This document shows, piece after piece, positions 9,055 to 14,726 of a stretch of 64,000 nucleotides of DNA. Source of the DNA: a virus; IMG/VR virus record IMGVR_UViG_3300037346_000419, positions 17,327 through 81,326 of that record. One strand, written 5' to 3'. The notes below the pieces were generated by a model. It ran no database searches, was not told the DNA's origin, and was given only the letters and a program-made list of their open reading frames with translations. The position numbers and the translations under genes were made by a program. Position 1 is the first letter of the stretch; the number at the start of each line of letters is the position of its first letter.

Positions 9055-9948
9055 TTAAAAAGGTAAATCTATTGGATTAATACTATTAGTACTGCTAGAA
9101 TCAATAGGGTCAATTCCAGCTATATATGCTGGATGAGGTAGATTTATATTATTAATATCATCAGAAAGATTATTAGATATTATATCTGAATTAAAAAAGC
9201 TATTTATTGCATCACTATTTAAATTCATTTGAAATAACGCTTTTTTAATTTCTTTAAGTTTACTTCTTTCTGTGTCTCGAAATGACAAAACAACTAAATT
9301 TTCTTCTTTACAAAAATCAGATAATATATCATTTTCAACTATATTGTTTAATTCTGTTATACTATTAAAATTTTCTTCAAAACCTTTTGAAAACAACTCT
9401 TCATCTATACTTTTTGTACTTTTAAATTGTACTGAAATACCTTTTTCATAACAACTATTTATTAAGTCTTTTTCTACTTTTTTATAAAAACTTTTATATA
9501 TAGGATTTAATAAAAACTCAGTTGCTACAAGTAATTTAAAATATTTATATATGGGGACATCATTATCAAAAATTTGGTTTCTTTCATAATTTTTACAACA
9601 CAAAATTAATAAGATGTTTTCTTTATCATCTAAAATAGAATAGTGACCTGAAGAAATTTCAACATCTTTCCCTTGAACTTTAAATCCATATTTTCGTATT
9701 CTATCTTTATATTTAAAGTTTTTTAAAAATTCACTATAAGTTTTTGTTTTATAAAATCTAATACTTAAATGTTTATAATAAAATTTAATATCAGTTAAAA
9801 CAGGAAGAAAAACTGAGATGTTAAAAGGGCTTATATACATAGTATCATCACAAATTGTATAATAAGGCATATATTCTCCCAAACTTTTCACTCCTATTTT
9901 TAAAATATCAGGGTGTGCTTGAGCATCATAAATTTTGTCTATAATCAT
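9055..9948 (-). CDS. Hypothetical protein coupled to the E1 gene; C-terminal DLPF tail
   Basis: 297 aa, 4-nt overlap with the E1 stop codon. Confidence 0.65.
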   Translation of the reverse strand: MIIDKIYDAQAHPDILKIGVKSLGEYMPYYTICDDTMYISPFNISVFLPVLTDIKFYYKHLSIRFYKTKTYSEFLKNFKYKDRIRKYGFKVQGKDVEISSGHYSILDDKENILLILCCKNYERNQIFDNDVPIYKYFKLLVATEFLLNPIYKSFYKKVEKDLINSCYEKGISVQFKSTKSIDEELFSKGFEENFNSITELNNIVENDILSDFCKEENLVVLSFRDTERSKLKEIKKALFQMNLNSDAINSFFNSDIISNNLSDDINNINLPHPAYIAGIDPIDSSSTNSINPIDLPF

Positions 9949-10631
9949 GATATAACATTTGTATATGTGACTGGAATAAAAAACTCATAAAAAAATGGTA
10001 TATCCCTAACTTTTTCTCTTTCATGAATATTTGTTAAATGATTTGTAAAAAAAGCTGTCATTAAAGAACCTATCATTGCTGCACAATGACTTGTCTGTTT
10101 TAATGTGCATGGTGCATCTTCTACTTCATCATCATCAAAAAGATATTTTTCATACTCTTCAATTTTATCTGGAGTCACACAAAATATTTGTAATTGTTCT
10201 AATTCCAATCTACCATCTATGAAAATAGGAGTTACAGGACAATTAGGAATACTTTTTTTCCAAACTTCAAACATATCTTTTCTAGCTTTCATATTATCAA
10301 AAGCAGAAAACATAAAATAATGTGTAGGAGAATTTCTATCAATTTTTTCATTAAAAATATGAGGTGTTTTACCACAAAATTCATAAATAATATTACTAAT
10401 AGCATTTACTTTTGGTATGCCTAAATCTTTTACTTTAAACATTTGACCTCCCATATTATGTTCTTCTATTAAATCATCATCATAAATAACACAATTATTT
10501 CCTATTCTACTAAGAAAAAAACTTAACCATGTGCCAATACCTCCTGCACCCCCTATCATTACTGTTTCAGGATTTTCAGAAAACCATAAAGCATCTTTAA
10601 ATCTATTATACTGCGCTTCCATATTCTTCAA
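9945..10631 (-). CDS. ThiF/E1-like ubiquitin-activating (adenylating) enzyme
   Basis: IGGAGGIG, YDDDLIEEHNMGGQ, PKVNA, SAFDNMKAR, FIDGR, and APC with a candidate catalytic Cys. Confidence 0.88.
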   Translation of the reverse strand: MKNMEAQYNRFKDALWFSENPETVMIGGAGGIGTWLSFFLSRIGNNCVIYDDDLIEEHNMGGQMFKVKDLGIPKVNAISNIIYEFCGKTPHIFNEKIDRNSPTHYFMFSAFDNMKARKDMFEVWKKSIPNCPVTPIFIDGRLELEQLQIFCVTPDKIEEYEKYLFDDDEVEDAPCTLKQTSHCAAMIGSLMTAFFTNHLTNIHEREKVRDIPFFYEFFIPVTYTNVIS

Positions 10632-11856
10632 ATTTTTGTAAGAAAAACTTTATTGCTAATTTTATTTTACTAACAACTTTATATTCTATTTCTAACTCTT
10701 CAAGTTCTTCAACTATACGATTTGTAATGTAAATAAAATTTTCATCGTCTTCTTCTTCTGTAAACATATTTTTATATAAAGGTACAAAATTCTCTAATAT
10801 TTGTCTACAAATTTCTTCTATTTTTACTGCTCCAATTGTCACATTTAATTCTAAATCTTCTAAAACATCATCAATAGTTTTTGTATCATCTTCTTTAGTA
10901 TTAGTATAATTTAATAAAGCATAAATAAAATCTTGTATTAAATCTAATTCATCTTCTTCTAAAAAAGTATCATTATCAATTTCTTCAAAATCTATGTCAT
11001 CAACAAATTCTTGAAATAAATCAATTTGTTTTTTATTTGTAGTGACAACTTTTGTTAAAGGACTATTAGGAATTATAGGATTATTTGGGATAATGTTTGC
11101 AAAACCTTTAATAGGATTTCTATTTTGAGGAGGAAAAGTTTGAACATAAATAGGTTTTTCAGCTTTCTTTATAATAGCTTCTACTCCTTCTTTAAATTCT
11201 TGATTAACTATTATTTCTTCTTGTTCAGATATAATGTCACAATTATAAATAAATAATTTTTCTTTTTTAAATTTTAAATCTTCTTTAGATATTGTATATT
11301 TTTTACCATTTTCATCTAAAGAAATATATGGTGTTTTTGTAATATCTTTTTGTATAGCTCCTCTAAAAGCAACTTTAGCTTCAAAATCCATATAGTTATT
11401 TACTATTAAAGAAAGATAAAAATTGTGAGAATCTGAATTATCATTTAATTCACTCATATCTGTTCCAGAGAAAAAAACATTCATTGTATTGTGGCTATGT
11501 ATATGCCCAATTTTCCAATTCATTCTTTCTTCATCTTTCATCATATAATCTACAAATCTATTATCAAATTCGTATTCTGTAAAAGCTTGTGTGCCTTTAT
11601 CCATTGGTAAAATATCTCTTATAATAAGAAGCATATTTTCGGGTTTTCTTATAGAGCCTATTATTTCATAAAATAATATTCCTGACCACTCTACCTTTGC
11701 TATTTTTTTACACAGGTACTTGATTTTGAATAATATTTCTTTGGATATTTCTAATTTTATTCTCTTTTCTAATTGCTCTATTGACAACGACTTGTTTATA
11801 TAAATGTTGTTCGAGGGCATTACTTGCGGATTTTGTGTATTTTGGTAATAATTCAT
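10606..11856 (-). CDS. JAB/MPN+ (JAMM) metalloprotease with acidic C-terminal region
   Basis: EWSG followed by HIHSHNTMNVFFSGTD, which fits the JAMM motif E...HxH-x7-S-x2-D. Confidence 0.85.
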   Translation of the reverse strand: MNYYQNTQNPQVMPSNNIYINKSLSIEQLEKRIKLEISKEILFKIKYLCKKIAKVEWSGILFYEIIGSIRKPENMLLIIRDILPMDKGTQAFTEYEFDNRFVDYMMKDEERMNWKIGHIHSHNTMNVFFSGTDMSELNDNSDSHNFYLSLIVNNYMDFEAKVAFRGAIQKDITKTPYISLDENGKKYTISKEDLKFKKEKLFIYNCDIISEQEEIIVNQEFKEGVEAIIKKAEKPIYVQTFPPQNRNPIKGFANIIPNNPIIPNSPLTKVVTTNKKQIDLFQEFVDDIDFEEIDNDTFLEEDELDLIQDFIYALLNYTNTKEDDTKTIDDVLEDLELNVTIGAVKIEEICRQILENFVPLYKNMFTEEEDDENFIYITNRIVEELEELEIEYKVVSKIKLAIKFFLQKFEEYGSAV

Positions 11857-12949
11857 ATTTTACTTTTATTTCTTCTTTTGTTTCTTGTTTTTTTTCATAA
11901 ACTTTAAAATCTATAATTTTACTTCTAAAAATTATAGAAGGAATTAAATTTTGATTTTTCAAATCTTTATTTATTTCTTTTACGTTTTCTTTATAATCAT
12001 CTTTATTAAATTGATAGTATATATCTTCTATTTTTGTTACAATAAGATTTTTTATATTGTCATAATCAAACTTTTTAATTATATTTATTATTGTGTTTTT
12101 AAAATTATCATTTATTATAAATTTAAGACTTCTATTTTGTACTATAACACGTAAATTTTTTATATCATTCTCATTTATATTTTTAATTAATTGAATATTT
12201 ACTATATTAAACATATTTTTAGCATCAGTTCTATCTATTGATATACTACTACTTTCTGCATTTGTTATAACATCTCTCATTTTTATATGGGGGCCACCTT
12301 CTAAGGATTCCCAAGATAAATAGTTATCTAAAGTAATAATAAATAATTCAAATGCTTCAGGAGTACATTCATTTCTATTTATAGATATTATATCAGAAAT
12401 TTCACTTTCTCCATAACAAAAACTTGAACTATAAAAATTTTTATTATATTTATAACTCATTGTATTAGTATGAGAGTGTCTATAAGCATTGTGAAATTCT
12501 TGTTTATTAACTGATAATCTAATACCTTTAAAATCTTTAAAAAAGATGGATGAAGTAAATTTATGTATAGGTAAAACTATTAATAAATCTTTTATAAGAT
12601 GTTCTTCTTCTACACTATTTTTAATTGTGATAGAAGGATATAATATAAAAATATTTATTTGTATAGAATTTATTAAAGTATTATCTTGCTTATTAGAAAA
12701 ATTATCTATAATACTTAAATTAATATCCCAATTATCTTTATGATGTGCATTTAAAATTGGAGTAATTAAATTTATAAAATTAGAAAATCTTATTTTATTT
12801 CTAACCCCTATACCACATACATAATCTTTTTGTATTAAAGTTTTTAAAAAATTTATGTCTCTTGATTTTCCTGATTTGTTCCAATTATTGCATAATTTAA
12901 TAATTGTATTTTCATAAGTAGTTCCTATTGTGTTTATATTTAACTGCAT
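11708..12949 (-). CDS. Prokaryotic E2-like (ubiquitin-conjugating) domain protein
   Basis: YRHSH...SSSFCYG followed by a helix and WESLEGGP, like the E2 H-P-N/H...C core. Lies between the Ubl and JAB genes. Confidence 0.6.
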   Translation of the reverse strand: MQLNINTIGTTYENTIIKLCNNWNKSGKSRDINFLKTLIQKDYVCGIGVRNKIRFSNFINLITPILNAHHKDNWDINLSIIDNFSNKQDNTLINSIQINIFILYPSITIKNSVEEEHLIKDLLIVLPIHKFTSSIFFKDFKGIRLSVNKQEFHNAYRHSHTNTMSYKYNKNFYSSSFCYGESEISDIISINRNECTPEAFELFIITLDNYLSWESLEGGPHIKMRDVITNAESSSISIDRTDAKNMFNIVNIQLIKNINENDIKNLRVIVQNRSLKFIINDNFKNTIINIIKKFDYDNIKNLIVTKIEDIYYQFNKDDYKENVKEINKDLKNQNLIPSIIFRSKIIDFKVYEKKQETKEEIKVKYELLPKYTKSASNALEQHLYKQVVVNRAIRKENKIRNIQRNIIQNQVPV

Positions 12950-12957
12950 AATTTTTT

Positions 12958-12977
12958 AAAGGGGTGTTTCCACCCCT
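12958..12977 (-). terminator. GC-rich hairpin (terminator/attenuator) between the Ubl and E2 genes
   Basis: AGGGGTG-GAAA-CACCCCT-TT on the minus strand, with a GNRA loop and a short U tract. Confidence 0.6.
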
Positions 12978-12992
12978 ATCTAATTTGTTTTT

Positions 12993-13652
12993 TTAAAAAC
13001 CTTTATTAATTTCTGCTAATTCTCTAGTTAATCTTTCAGTTTCTTCTCTGTCATCAATAGCTGCTTGGGCTGACTCAGAATTACTATAAGTTTCAATTAA
13101 ATTTAACACTCTGTTATATTTTCTTGAATCTACTAAGTCTTCCCAAGCTGTTGTCAAATCATTTTTATCAATTACTAAAACAACTTCTGCTAGATTATTC
13201 TCAACAGAAAGAATAGCTAAAGAAGATTGAGAAGGACTAATTTGTTCTGAAACTGCTTCTGGCTCTGGAGTTTGAGTTAAATTGTTAAAATAGTTTTTTA
13301 AATCTAAAGTTGAACATTGTGTCCAACTAACTTTACAGTTGAATTTAGCCACTCCAATTTTATCAGCAGGACTTAGTTGATTTCTTAAATCATTATAATT
13401 CATATTGTTATAATCTACTCCAGATTTAGTTTTAATAGGACTGATAAACAAAGTAAAAGCTGTAGTAGGCAATATTGCTATACTACTTTCTAAACTTGTT
13501 CTATTTACACTTTCTAAAGCTTTGAATTGATTCATATCAAATCCTTTATTTTCTACAACACTTTTCAATTCACCCCAAGTTGTTGCTGATGATTGAATTT
13601 TAATTTTTTCACCTTTTGTGGTGAATATGGTGATTTCTCTTTCGTTACTCAT
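12993..13652 (-). CDS. Ubiquitin-like (beta-grasp) domain fused to a C-terminal extension
   Basis: Residues 1-78 follow ubiquitin topology (EITIFTTKGEKIKI, TWGELKSVV, FTLFISP) and end KTKSG. Confidence 0.7.
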   Translation of the reverse strand: MSNEREITIFTTKGEKIKIQSSATTWGELKSVVENKGFDMNQFKALESVNRTSLESSIAILPTTAFTLFISPIKTKSGVDYNNMNYNDLRNQLSPADKIGVAKFNCKVSWTQCSTLDLKNYFNNLTQTPEPEAVSEQISPSQSSLAILSVENNLAEVVLVIDKNDLTTAWEDLVDSRKYNRVLNLIETYSNSESAQAAIDDREETERLTRELAEINKGF

Positions 13653-13691
13653 TTTATTTTTTATTTATTTTTTATTTATTTTTATTACTCT

Positions 13692-14726
13692 TTATAGAAG
13701 ATTTATATTTTTATCTCTTAAAAAATCTATTAAATTTTGTTTTCCTTTATTTTCTATTAAATCTGATGCATCTGAAATTTTATCTTTTAATAAATTTTCA
13801 TTTAACCATATTTTTTCTATATTATTAATACCTAATGATATTAATAAATCATATAGTTTTATAGAAGCTTTTATTCCAGCTTTATCATTATCAAAAAAAA
13901 TAATAATTTTATTAAAAGAATTTAATAAATTTTTTAATATTTCCTTATCAGGAAACATTCCTTCATTTTGAAACCAAATTACATTTAAATTTAGATTTTT
14001 TAATACTCTATAATCTTTATAAGATTTAGTAATTATTATATTATCTGAATTATTATCTATGAAATTTATTCCCCCAATATCATTATTATCACAATTAGTT
14101 ATAAATTTTTTAACTTTTTGCTCAGGTCTATAGATTTTCTTTTTATTATCTTTAAAATCTGTATAGCAATAACATAAATCGATGGGTCTAACAGTTATAT
14201 CTCCTTTTCTTGTATTCAATAGTTTGAATTTTTGAATTGGAAAAACTTTATCATCTATTAAATTTTGTTTAGTAATTTCATAAGGAGTCCAATAAAGACC
14301 ATCTATTTTACTGAAATTTCTTGTTGCAATTAGAATCTTAAAATCTTTTTTAATAACATTGACTTTTTTGACTTTTTTTACAACTGGTTTTATAACAAAA
14401 TTTTTATTTTTTATGATATTTTTATTTATAAAAGCTAAAGTTTCATAAAAATTCTTTAAATTGTATTTTAGTTTGATTGCATCAAAACAATCAATTTTTA
14501 GATTATCTGCATAATCAACAAATCTTAGGGTGTTAGCATCTAATTCAAACCAACACCCTGGATTTGTATCATCTCTAAAAGGAGATATGATATATTCAAA
14601 TTCTATAGGTTCAAAACCAAATACATAAGCAAATATATCTTGTTCAGATACTTTATTAAGTATAGATTCTTTACTAATAAAACCTTTAACTTCTATATTA
14701 TCTGTTATTTTATCATAAATAGACAT
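13692..14726 (-). CDS. dnaG: DNA primase (DnaG/Toprim)
   Basis: SPFRDDTNPGC N-terminal region, IITKSYKD, FFDNDKAG, SDASD. Confidence 0.85.
   Translation of the reverse strand: MSIYDKITDNIEVKGFISKESILNKVSEQDIFAYVFGFEPIEFEYIISPFRDDTNPGCWFELDANTLRFVDYADNLKIDCFDAIKLKYNLKNFYETLAFINKNIIKNKNFVIKPVVKKVKKVNVIKKDFKILIATRNFSKIDGLYWTPYEITKQNLIDDKVFPIQKFKLLNTRKGDITVRPIDLCYCYTDFKDNKKKIYRPEQKVKKFITNCDNNDIGGINFIDNNSDNIIITKSYKDYRVLKNLNLNVIWFQNEGMFPDKEILKNLLNSFNKIIIFFDNDKAGIKASIKLYDLLISLGINNIEKIWLNENLLKDKISDASDLIENKGKQNLIDFLRDKNINLL

What the first reader, a model, noticed from the sequence alone, without database searches (positions are those of the whole stretch)
12993..13652. Ubl is made as a pro-protein: 78-aa ubiquitin-like domain ending in Gly plus a 141-aa extension
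The first 78 aa (13652-13419) align by eye to ubiquitin topology and end ...SPIKTKSG, a single terminal Gly. A short helical domain (YNDLRNQL...WTQCSTLDL), a Pro/Ser linker and an acidic helical tail follow. Inference: the JAB enzyme cleaves after Gly78, releasing both the modifier and a second, possibly DNA-binding, protein, as in eukaryotic ubiquitin-ribosomal protein fusions.
Basis: inference. Interest (0 to 1): 0.75.

Follow-up and report, generated by a model that had tools for sequence, protein, structure and literature searches.

The report
Phage ubiquitin-like tag made as precursor
This phage gene encodes a ubiquitin-like tag whose key glycine is buried in front of a 141-residue acidic tail, and comparison with several hundred relatives suggests the tail is cut off, probably by the neighbouring JAB protease, before the tag can be used.

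Summary
ORF 12993-13652 (-) encodes 219 aa. Residues 1-78 are a high-confidence ubiquitin fold ending KTKSG. A three-helix mini-domain, a Pro/Ser linker and an acidic helical tail follow.

In 150 homologues Gly78 is kept in 149, Lys76 in 147 and Ser/Ala77 in 144. In the 180 relatives where the motif could be located, the sequence after the Gly varies from 1 to more than 200 residues. None of them ends at the Gly. Twenty-two are Ubl-only forms with a 1-3 residue cap (KSGK*, KSGL*, KAGN*).

Wherever the contig reaches far enough, the gene is followed by an E2-like protein (HSH...C), an intact JAMM peptidase and a minimal ThiF-type E1. I therefore read it as a capped Ubl precursor cut after Gly78, most likely by the JAB. 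Nothing was shown biochemically.

The "DNA-binding second protein" idea is not supported. The extension is acidic (pI 4.4), matches no known family, and many relatives lack it. It is conserved among long forms, though, so it probably has a role.

Closest precedents are BilA caps trimmed by BilC and the BubAB fusion cut by BubCD. It is a member of neither. This scan has already noted similar phage Ubl-E2-JAB-E1 cassettes on other DNA. I found no paper on them.

The parts
12993..13652 (-). Whole precursor gene (219 aa + stop): ubiquitin-like domain plus 141-aa extension
   Evidence: 765 homologous cluster representatives; PHROG 15560
13419..13652 (-). Residues 1-78: beta-grasp ubiquitin-like domain ending K76-S77-G78, the proposed mature modifier. 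Gly78 codon at 13419-13421.
   Evidence: AF2 pLDDT 93-98; Z 8-10 to UBX/FAT10/Ub/ISG15/SUMO; G78 149/150, K76 147/150, S/A77 144/150
13272..13418 (-). Residues 79-127: variable junction (79-83), then a three-helix mini-domain conserved among long forms (N109, W/Y110, T111, L118)
   Evidence: the mini-domain HMM is found only fused behind the Ubl
13206..13271 (-). Residues 128-149: disordered Pro/Ser-rich acidic linker
   Evidence: pLDDT about 50; net charge -3
12996..13205 (-). Residues 150-219: acidic helical bundle ending ...ELAEINKGF. A C-terminal G+hydrophobic motif is shared by 82 of 130 long forms.
12960..12977 (.). G+C-rich hairpin (AGGGGTG-GAAA-CACCCCT on the coding strand) 16 nt after the stop codon, between the Ubl gene and the E2-like gene. 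It may lower read-through.
   Evidence: function not tested
11708..12949 (-). 413-aa protein with a UBC/UEV-like (E2-like) fold in residues about 30-230; H158-S-H160 and C178-x-G180
   Evidence: VIA-align list dominated by UEV/UBC/RWD folds and BubB, Z 4.2-6.1; H160, C178, G180 invariant in 28 distinct sequences; always follows the Ubl gene
10606..11856 (-). 416-aa JAB/JAMM metallopeptidase (E56, H120-x-H122, S130, D133) with a long C-terminal helical region; proposed processing enzyme
   Evidence: PADLOC JAB 2.2e-7; catalytic residues invariant in 27 sequences
9945..10631 (-). 228-aa minimal ThiF/MoeB-type E1 adenylating enzyme with GxGG and a conserved Cys175
   Evidence: Pfam ThiF 4.2e-10, above cut-off; invariants and C175 24/25

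Best explanation
The gene encodes the precursor of a phage-owned ubiquitin-like modifier. Residues 1-78 fold as a ubiquitin-type beta-grasp with a flexible basic tail ending K-T-K-S-G78. In the primary product, Gly78 is blocked by 141 further residues, so the E1 cannot adenylate it. A peptidase cuts the Gly78-Val79 bond. Most likely this is the JAMM/JAB enzyme encoded two genes downstream. The freed Gly78 carboxylate is then activated by the 228-aa ThiF-type E1 (conserved Cys175). It is probably passed to the E2-like 413-aa protein (invariant Cys178 after an HSH motif) and attached to targets that remain unknown. The released 79-219 fragment is an acidic helical protein found only in the long-form relatives. 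It is made 1:1 with the tag and probably acts in protein-protein contacts, not on DNA. Shown here: the fold, the conservation pattern, the variable cap, the gene neighbourhood and the catalytic residues. Inferred: the cut itself, the identity of the protease, conjugation, and any role of the released fragment.
For: (1) Residues 1-78 are a confident ubiquitin fold. The alignments to FAT10 (chain residues 87-164, UBA6-FAT10 entry) and ISG15 (chain residues 80-154) run to model residue 78, so the fold ends there. (2) In 150 homologues G78 is kept in 149, K76 in 147 and S/A77 in 144, while positions 79-83 are variable and gapped. (3) Among the 180 relatives where the motif could be located, none ends at the Gly. 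Twenty-two have only 1-3 residues after it, 8 have 4-30, 30 have 31-120 and 120 have more than 120. P1' is never D, E, P, H or R. (4) Complete short ORFs such as ...KTKSGK*, KVKSGL*, KVKSGN*, KIKAGL* and KVKSGTNG* lie on contigs of 67-95 kb. In L019 the next gene starts 57 nt after the stop and no other frame continues. (5) In 36 distinct viral loci the Ubl gene, short or long, is followed by p413-like, JAB and E1 genes wherever the contig reaches that far. The same order holds in Flavobacterium phage FpV4 and the crAss-like phage cr111_1. (6) The JAMM catalytic set is invariant in 27 sequences, the E1 nucleotide-binding and catalytic residues and C175 in 24-25 of 25, and p413 H160/C178/G180 in 28 of 28. 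(7) p413 residues about 30-230 give a hit list dominated by UBC-superfamily folds (Tsg101 and Vps23 UEV, Ube2K, RWD, Ubc13, UbcH5b, Ubc9, BubB). (8) Published precedent: JAB BilC trims BilA after its conserved Gly and also cuts a BilA-GFP fusion (PMC10557695). The JAB domain of BubCD cuts the BubAB Ubl-E2 fusion after Gly229 (PMC11601596).
Against: There is no biochemical or mass-spectrometric evidence for a cut, for this JAB as the enzyme, or for any conjugate. The E2 assignment rests on middling structural scores (Z 4-6, model pLDDT 71) plus a motif; no Pfam, NCBIfam or PADLOC E2 model matches. The E1 is a minimal single-domain ThiF/MoeB type, which also serves sulfur-carrier pathways. The mini-domain and the C-terminal G-F motif are conserved among long forms. 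The extension is therefore not a mere cap, and it could work while still attached.
Confidence: 0.7

Rival explanations
1. Sulfur-carrier reading. The beta-grasp is a ThiS/MoaD/QbsE-like sulfur carrier. The JAB trims the C-terminal cap, as QbsD does for QbsE (from my own knowledge of that pathway). The minimal ThiF-type E1 adenylates Gly78 for thiocarboxylate formation, feeding a phage thiolation reaction rather than protein tagging.
For: The E1 is a 228-aa single-domain enzyme whose best named matches are ThiF/MoeB-type adenylyltransferases (Pfam ThiF 4.2e-10; NCBIfam ThiF PRK08644 1e-11, below cut-off). A molybdopterin synthase small subunit is among the fold matches (5mpo_B, Z 8.5). The cassette lies among nucleotide and DNA-metabolism genes.
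Against: No rhodanese, cysteine desulfurase or sulfur-accepting biosynthetic enzyme lies in the conserved cassette. A conserved UBC-like protein with an invariant Cys always sits between the Ubl and the JAB. The top fold matches are ubiquitin, UBX, FAT10, ISG15 and SUMO. The tail is K-x-K-[S/A]-G, not the usual G-G. Pre-processing at Gly78 would still hold under this reading.
Confidence: 0.12
2. Uncleaved adaptor reading. The protein works full-length. The N-terminal beta-grasp is a non-conjugated Ubl/UBX-type interaction domain of a replication-module adaptor, and K-S-G is only a conserved turn at a domain border.
For: The top structural match is a UBX domain (Z 10.1), and UBX/UBL domains are not conjugated. 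The mini-domain and the C-terminal G-F motif are conserved in long forms. The extension HMM is never found as a separate gene.
Against: At least 22 relatives consist of the beta-grasp plus 1-3 residues and sit in the same cassette, so the domain works without any partner domain. A near-invariant Gly preceded by K-x-K at the exact end of the fold, with a variable and gapped junction after it, is the signature of a processed modifier. An E1, an E2-like protein and a JAB always accompany it.
Confidence: 0.1
3. Processed, but not by the JAB. Gly78 is exposed by a host or other phage protease, and the JAB serves only to remove the tag from targets (deconjugation).
For: JAB enzymes of Ubl systems also cleave isopeptide conjugates (PMC10557695). 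No direct evidence links this JAB to the precursor.
Against: No other protease is conserved in the cassette. The capped Gly and the JAB co-occur in all loci examined. In both characterised bacterial systems the cassette's own JAB does the pre-processing.
Confidence: 0.08

Closest known systems
BilA / BilC of Bil (bacterial ISG15-like) anti-phage systems (PMC10557695)
   Same: A Ubl whose conserved Gly is followed by a short cap (up to nine residues in Type II BilA). The operon's JAB peptidase cuts just after the Gly and also cuts a Ubl-GFP fusion. The gene set is Ubl, E2, JAB and E1. The short forms of the phage family (KSG + 1-3 residues) look just like this.
   Different: Bil is a bacterial defence system, whereas this cassette sits in the replication module of lytic-type phage genomes. 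[quoted passage not shown] No PADLOC Bil model matches. The window's form carries a 141-aa conserved extension, far longer than any Bil cap described.
BubAB / BubCD of Type I Bub operons (PMC11601596)
   Same: The Ubl is made as the N-terminal part of a fusion protein. The operon's JAB domain cuts after a conserved Gly and releases both the Ubl and a second functional protein. BubB appears among the fold matches of the neighbouring p413 (9eav_D, Z 4.5).
   Different: In Bub the released partner is the E2, and JAB and E1 are fused. Bub uses Ser/Tyr oxyester chemistry and has a DUF6527 serine protease. Here the extension is all-helical and acidic and is not a UBC fold. The E2-like protein is a separate gene with an invariant Cys. 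JAB and E1 are separate.
Eukaryotic ubiquitin precursors (ubiquitin-ribosomal protein fusions, capped polyubiquitin; SUMO, NEDD8 and ATG8 pro-forms). From established knowledge.
   Same: The modifier is never translated with a free terminal Gly. A dedicated protease exposes it. Fusion gives 1:1 co-production of a second protein.
   Different: The extension is not a ribosomal protein and matches no known family. The protease is a JAMM metalloenzyme, not a Cys protease. The tail is K-S-G, not G-G.
PRTRC cassettes of plasmids and integrative elements (NCBIfam TIGR03735-03738)
   Same: A compact prokaryotic set of ThiF-like E1, JAB, E2-like protein and small Ubl on mobile DNA. The JAB and E1 here give their only named cassette-type matches to PRTRC_A and PRTRC_ThiF.
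   Different: The scores are far below the curated cut-offs (14 vs 102 bits; 33 vs 145 bits). The Ubl and p413 do not match PRTRC models at all. No ParB-like gene is present.

Membership tests
Ubiquitin-like modifiers (conjugatable beta-grasp proteins) | Beta-grasp (ubiquitin) fold | tested here: met
   AF2 pLDDT 93-98 over residues 1-72; Z 8-10 to UBX, FAT10, Ub, ISG15 and SUMO; Foldseek top 50 nearly all Ub-like
Ubiquitin-like modifiers (conjugatable beta-grasp proteins) | Conserved Gly at the end of a flexible tail just after the last strand | tested here: met
   G78 in 149/150, with K76 in 147/150 and S/A77 in 144/150; pLDDT drops in residues 71-80
Ubiquitin-like modifiers (conjugatable beta-grasp proteins) | Cognate E1 adenylating enzyme (and E2) encoded alongside | tested here: met
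   ThiF-type E1 above the Pfam cut-off; cassette conserved in 36 distinct viral loci plus two GenBank phages. The E2 is assigned by fold and motif only.
Ubiquitin-like modifiers (conjugatable beta-grasp proteins) | C-terminal Gly is adenylated and linked to targets | not testable with these tools
   Needs biochemistry or mass spectrometry
Ubl precursors processed by a cassette JAB (as BilA, BubAB) | Conserved Gly is always internal, with a variable C-terminal cap | tested here: met
   0 of 180 located relatives end at the Gly; caps run from 1 to more than 200 residues
Ubl precursors processed by a cassette JAB (as BilA, BubAB) | Catalytically intact JAMM peptidase in the same cassette | tested here: met
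   E56, H120, H122, S130 and D133 invariant in 27 sequences; PADLOC JAB 2.2e-7
Ubl precursors processed by a cassette JAB (as BilA, BubAB) | The JAB cleaves just after the Gly | not testable with these tools
Bil (BilABCD) | [quoted passage not shown] | tested here: not met
   The E1 is 228 aa, with a single ThiF domain spanning residues 23-202
Bil (BilABCD) | Sequence match to Bil component models | tested here: not met
   PADLOC gives only generic JAB models and the adenylation part of CBASS E1-E2 models; nothing matches the Ubl or p413
Type I Bub (BubAB/BubCD) | The protein fused behind the Ubl is the E2 (UBC fold) | tested here: not met
   The extension is all-helical with no beta-meander; the E2-like protein is a separate gene
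Type I Bub (BubAB/BubCD) | JAB fused to E1; Ser/Tyr oxyester chemistry without catalytic Cys | tested here: not met
   JAB and E1 are separate ORFs; E1 C175 and p413 C178 are conserved
PRTRC cassette | Matches to TIGR03735-03738 above the curated cut-offs | tested here: not met
   PRTRC_A 14.2 bits vs 101.8; PRTRC_ThiF 32.8 vs 144.75; none for the Ubl or p413
ThiS/MoaD sulfur carriers | C-terminal Gly-Gly and association with sulfur-transfer or biosynthetic enzymes | tested here: inconclusive
   The tail is S/A-G, not G-G, and no sulfur-transfer gene lies in the conserved cassette. The E1 type is compatible.
Prok-E2_D (PF14460), for the neighbouring p413 | Match to the Pfam model | tested here: inconclusive
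   No match in a six-frame search of the genome at E<=10, nor for 11 homologues. Only an Atlas lead: a look-alike cluster in which 15% of members carry PF14460.

The most novel reading that the evidence does not exclude
One gene yields two Gly-ended products. Besides Gly78, the extension carries a second conserved 'Gly + hydrophobic residue(s) + stop' end (here ...INKG218-F219*). Eighty-two of 130 long forms share it, and it resembles the 1-3-residue caps of the short Ubl forms. If the JAB also trims this end, the acidic 79-218 fragment would be a second substrate for activation or attachment, or a tail-docking adaptor for the E1/E2. The cassette would then handle both a folded ubiquitin-like tag and a non-beta-grasp payload from a single precursor. 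Another note of this scan raised a similar 'fixed Gly before a last hydrophobic residue' tail for a different phage; I treat that as a lead only. In this window no other ORF has such an end.
Probability: 0.12. Interest if true: 0.8.

Novelty: new variant of a known kind. Interest (0 to 1): 0.62.

Why it matters
Ubiquitin-type tagging in prokaryotes has so far been characterised as bacterial defence against phages (type II CBASS, Bil, Bub).

Here the tag belongs to the phage and lies in the replication module. The family has at least 765 sequence clusters. It reaches from Flavobacterium phages to crAss-like gut phages (Crassvirales). Two pattern scans of 185,579 prokaryote species genomes found no relative.

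The precursor architecture gives a concrete handle. The cut site is predicted to the residue, and the family offers a natural series of caps from 1 to more than 200 residues. Because Lys76 precedes Ser77-Gly78, trypsin should leave a Ser-Gly remnant on modified lysines, which makes targets searchable by mass spectrometry. Finding what a phage tags during infection would open a new side of the phage-host ubiquitin-like arms race.

The long, conserved, acidic extension has no known relatives. It may be a second product made in fixed 1:1 ratio with the tag.

Tried and rejected
I replaced it with the search for related loci on viral contigs.
- Word-based homologue search with the full protein found only itself. 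The 'shorter' option searched only 30-67 aa and found nothing. A domain-only alignment then found the short forms.
- Identity of the extension:
  - Pfam, single protein and all 150 members: only scattered single-member noise.
  - NCBIfam: nothing.
  - PDB profile search: best E 0.16, an N-terminal stretch of a glucosyltransferase, not credible.
  - ESM Atlas, residues 79-219: no usable hit.
  - VIA-align list of the whole model is filled by the beta-grasp, so the extension's fold is effectively untested.
- DNA-binding reading of the extension: rejected as unlikely because of its charge. A few relatives have Lys/Ala-rich tails instead (e.g. P0186).
- Relocation of the extension to another gene in short-form phages: HMMs of the extension and of the mini-domain hit only Ubl fusions. 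There was one marginal hit, E 0.0056 in L027.
- E2 assignment by sequence models: Prok-E2_D gave no match in the genome, and Pfam on 11 p413 homologues gave none.
- Literature: no paper combining crAss/crAss-like/Crassvirales/crAssphage with ThiF, ubiquitin or ubiquitin-like bears on this. The phage + Prok-E2 + ubiquitin-like search returned only the defence-system papers.
- Cellular homologues: two pattern scans of genome contigs found none. The method depends on short peptide patterns, so this is weak evidence of absence.
- A 'payload library' of other proteins with the acidic-helix + G + hydrophobic end: only this ORF in the window has it.

Full report
**1. What is there**

The ORF at 12993-13652 on the minus strand is exactly as described: 219 aa, ATG start. 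The Gly78 codon (GGA) lies at 13421-13419.

The gene sits in a same-strand block:
- DNA primase (13692-14726)
- this gene
- a 413-aa protein, "p413" (11708-12949)
- a 416-aa JAB/JAMM protein (10606-11856)
- a 228-aa ThiF-type E1 (9945-10631)
- a 297-aa unknown protein (9055-9948)

Pfam calls only the E1 (ThiF 4.2e-10, above the cut-off) and the primase Toprim domain. PADLOC recognises the JAB at 2.2e-7. PHROGs places all five cassette proteins in families of unknown function.

The window is part of an 81,326-base virus record, estimated 86% complete.

**2. Structure of the protein**

I built an AlphaFold2 model on 150 homologues (mean pLDDT 83, pTM 0.67). It shows:
- a beta-grasp domain: strands 5-11, 16-21, 43-47, 66-72 and helix 26-35, pLDDT 93-98
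- a less confident tail, residues 73-80
- three short helices: 86-92, 95-104, 115-127
- a disordered Pro/Ser stretch, 128-149
- a helical bundle, 150-218

Foldseek against the PDB returns almost only ubiquitin, SUMO, ISG15 and UBX chains (E about 2e-3, target TM 0.6-0.72). The Foldseek-independent VIA-align search gives 60 chains at Z>=8. The best are UBXD7 UBX (Z 10.1), FAT10 (9.4), linear ubiquitin (9.3) and ISG15 (9.2). All of them align to model residues 1-78. The alignments to FAT10 (chain residues 87-164) and ISG15 (chain residues 80-154) run to model residue 78, so the fold ends at Gly78.

**3.

An exhaustive HMMER search finds 765 cluster representatives at E<=1e-3 and 211 at E<=1e-10.

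In an alignment of the best 150:
- Gly78 is kept in 149, Lys76 in 147, Ser/Ala77 in 144 and Pro72 in 133.
- The consensus tail is R-P-x-K-T-K-[S/A]-G. This is a basic tail ending in a small residue plus Gly, reminiscent of the Arg-rich Gly-Gly tail of ubiquitin (from my own knowledge).
- Positions 79-83 are variable and gapped.
- A mini-domain then returns with its own conserved positions: N109 in 128, T111 in 141, L118 in 121.
- The rest is a variable acidic tail.

I then searched with an alignment of the domain alone (A6). This recovered 59 proteins of 40-146 aa. Many are complete 75-78-aa proteins on contigs of 67-95 kb. They end KTKSGK, KVKSGL, KVKSGN, KTNSGQ, KVKSGCT, KVKSGLSL, KVKSGWDL, KVKSGTNG, KIKAGK, KIKAGL or KNKAGN.

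Over the 180 family members in which the motif could be located, the number of residues after the Gly is:

| Residues after Gly | Members |
|---|---|
| 0 | 0 |
| 1-3 | 22 |
| 4-30 | 8 |
| 31-120 | 30 |
| more than 120 | 120 |

The residue after the Gly is never D, E, P, H or R.

In locus L019 the ORF stops one residue after the Gly. No other frame continues, and the next gene starts 57 nt later. That short form is therefore not a sequencing artefact.

A nearly invariant Gly that was never found at the end of the translated product, behind a cap of any length, is the signature of a modifier that needs proteolytic maturation.

**4. Gene neighbourhood**

I checked 40 viral loci, of which 36 are distinct. 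I also checked Flavobacterium phage FpV4 and the crAss-like phage cr111_1 (Steigviridae).

The order is primase, sometimes a uracil-DNA glycosylase, then Ubl, p413-like, JAB and E1. It is kept wherever the contig is long enough, whether the Ubl is short or long.

Conservation across distinct sequences:
- JAB: catalytic set E56, H120, H122, S130, D133 invariant in 27 of 27.
- E1: G28/G30/G31, D53, K74, D112, R117, D139, R141 invariant in 25 of 25; Cys175 in 24 of 25.
- p413: H160, C178, G180 invariant in 28 of 28; H158 in 25.

The AF2 model of p413 (pLDDT 71) has a helix, a four-stranded meander, a loop carrying H-S-H, a loop carrying Cys178, and then helices. That is the order of elements in a UBC fold.

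VIA-align ranks Tsg101 UEV (Z 6.1) and Vps23 UEV (5.8) on top. The list also holds Ube2K, four RWD domains, UBE2O, Ubc13, UbcH5b, UBE2E1, Ubc9 and BubB (Z 4.2-4.9). Foldseek is weak (Tsg101 UEV, probability 0.47).

These scores are middling. The enrichment for a single superfamily, together with the motif, makes an E2-like role likely. It is not proven. No sequence model for E2 families matches.

**5. Mechanism**

The best-supported reading is a capped precursor. Translation gives a Ubl whose reactive carboxylate is blocked. The cassette's JAMM peptidase cuts after Gly78. The minimal E1 adenylates Gly78 and may form a thioester on Cys175. The tag then passes to Cys178 of the E2-like protein and on to unknown targets.

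All steps after the sequence and fold evidence are inference.

Each step has a published counterpart in bacterial systems:
- BilC cuts BilA between Gly97 and Ala98 and also cleaves a BilA-GFP fusion. BilA homologues carry up to nine residues after the Gly (PMC10557695).
- The JAB domain of BubCD cuts the BubAB Ubl-E2 fusion just after Gly229, releasing two functional proteins (PMC11601596).

I put about 0.8 on Gly78 being the mature end, and about 0.7 on the whole statement including the JAB as the enzyme.

**6. The extension**

It is not a mere cap. The mini-domain is conserved among long forms. Of 130 long forms, 82 end in Gly plus a hydrophobic residue plus 0-3 residues, after an acidic helix...INKGF here, and ...MSGF...EEGF...MGY...LGL elsewhere.

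It is also not essential to the system. Many phages lack it. In those phages, no separate ORF within 7 kb carries it.

It is acidic: net -10 and pI 4.4 for residues 79-219. The median is -15 for long-form tails, and 92% of them are negative. A DNA-binding role is therefore unlikely. Protein-protein docking, regulation of the enzymes, or simple stoichiometric co-production are more plausible.

Nothing in Pfam, NCBIfam, the PDB sequences or the ESM Atlas identifies it. Its fold was not tested on its own.

The similarity between its end (Gly + one hydrophobic residue + stop) and the caps of the short Ubl forms leaves open a more novel idea: the JAB also trims this end, so that one gene gives two Gly-ended products. 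I give that about 0.12.

**7. Rivals**

- **Sulfur carrier (0.12).** This fits the minimal ThiF-type E1. It does not explain the conserved Cys-bearing UBC-like protein or the lack of sulfur-transfer genes. Pre-processing at Gly78 would still hold.
- **Uncleaved adaptor with a UBX-like domain (0.10).** The stand-alone short forms in the same cassette contradict it.
- **Processing by another protease, with the JAB acting only in deconjugation (0.08).** This cannot be excluded without an assay.

**8. Comparison and novelty**

The system works like Bil and Bub but is a member of neither:
- The E1 is single-domain, whereas Bil has tandem adenylation domains plus a Cys domain.
- JAB and E1 are separate, and both the E1 and the E2-like protein keep a Cys, whereas Bub has fusions and oxyester chemistry.
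- The extension is not an E2.
- PRTRC models are matched only far below their cut-offs.

Two pattern scans of 185,579 prokaryote species genomes found no relative. All contexts seen are viral.

I found no paper on ubiquitin-like systems of crAss-like or Flavobacterium phages.

Other notes of this scan have already flagged phage-encoded Ubl-E2-JAB-E1 cassettes on other genomes, including a crAss001-like phage and a "cleavable Ubl fusion". The kind of system is therefore not new to the scan. What this report adds is a family-wide pattern: the Gly was never found at the C-terminus, and the cap ranges from 1 to more than 200 residues.

I class the finding as a new variant of a known kind (a Ubl precursor processed by a cassette JAB). 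Interest is moderate to high.

**9. Limits**

- There is no experimental evidence of any kind.
- The cap-length census mixes two length-restricted searches and includes some contig-truncated proteins.
- The E2 call is of moderate strength.

Noticed in passing
window 11708-11856 (minus strand): The p413 and JAB ORFs overlap by 149 nt in different frames. Similar overlaps of about 40-125 nt recur in most related loci (L001, L003-L005, L009, L012, L017-L019), and both frames match family profiles through the overlap (PHROG 15310 to its end; PHROG 21448 from JAB residue 18). Start codons are longest-ORF calls, so the true overlap may be shorter. Translational coupling or a frameshift fusion was not examined.
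   Followed up: partly
L018 9796-11733; L028 9725-10974; L031 6991-8240: In three related viral loci the E1 gene is split into two ORFs about 540-990 nt apart. This suggests an intron, an intein or a homing-endonuclease insertion inside the E1.
   Followed up: no
window 12960-12977: A G+C-rich hairpin (7-bp stem, GAAA loop) lies in the 43-nt gap between the Ubl stop and the p413 start, in an otherwise very A+T-rich region. The scan flags it as terminator-like only on the opposite strand. It might lower read-through so that more tag than enzyme is made.
   Followed up: partly
window 13653-13691, compared with L001 5209-5958 and L019 6263-6982: Many relatives, including FpV4, carry a uracil-DNA glycosylase gene between primase and Ubl. 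In this window primase and Ubl are only 39 nt apart and no such gene lies there.
   Followed up: no
proteins P0186, P0095, P0147 (relatives, not in the window): Some family members replace the acidic extension with a Lys/Ala/Pro-rich, histone-H1-like tail directly after the conserved Gly. The released fragment would then have very different properties in different phages.
   Followed up: no
L020, L025, L030, L029/L032, L019: Phages with short (1-3 residue cap) Ubl forms tend to have longer p413 homologues (405-571 aa) than long-form phages (357-427 aa). The extra residues do not match the Ubl-extension HMM.
   Followed up: partly
window 9055-9948 (minus strand): The 297-aa protein after the E1 is poorly conserved (8 near-invariant positions in 10 sequences) and is absent or unrecognisable in several loci. 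It is therefore not a core part of the cassette.
   Followed up: partly
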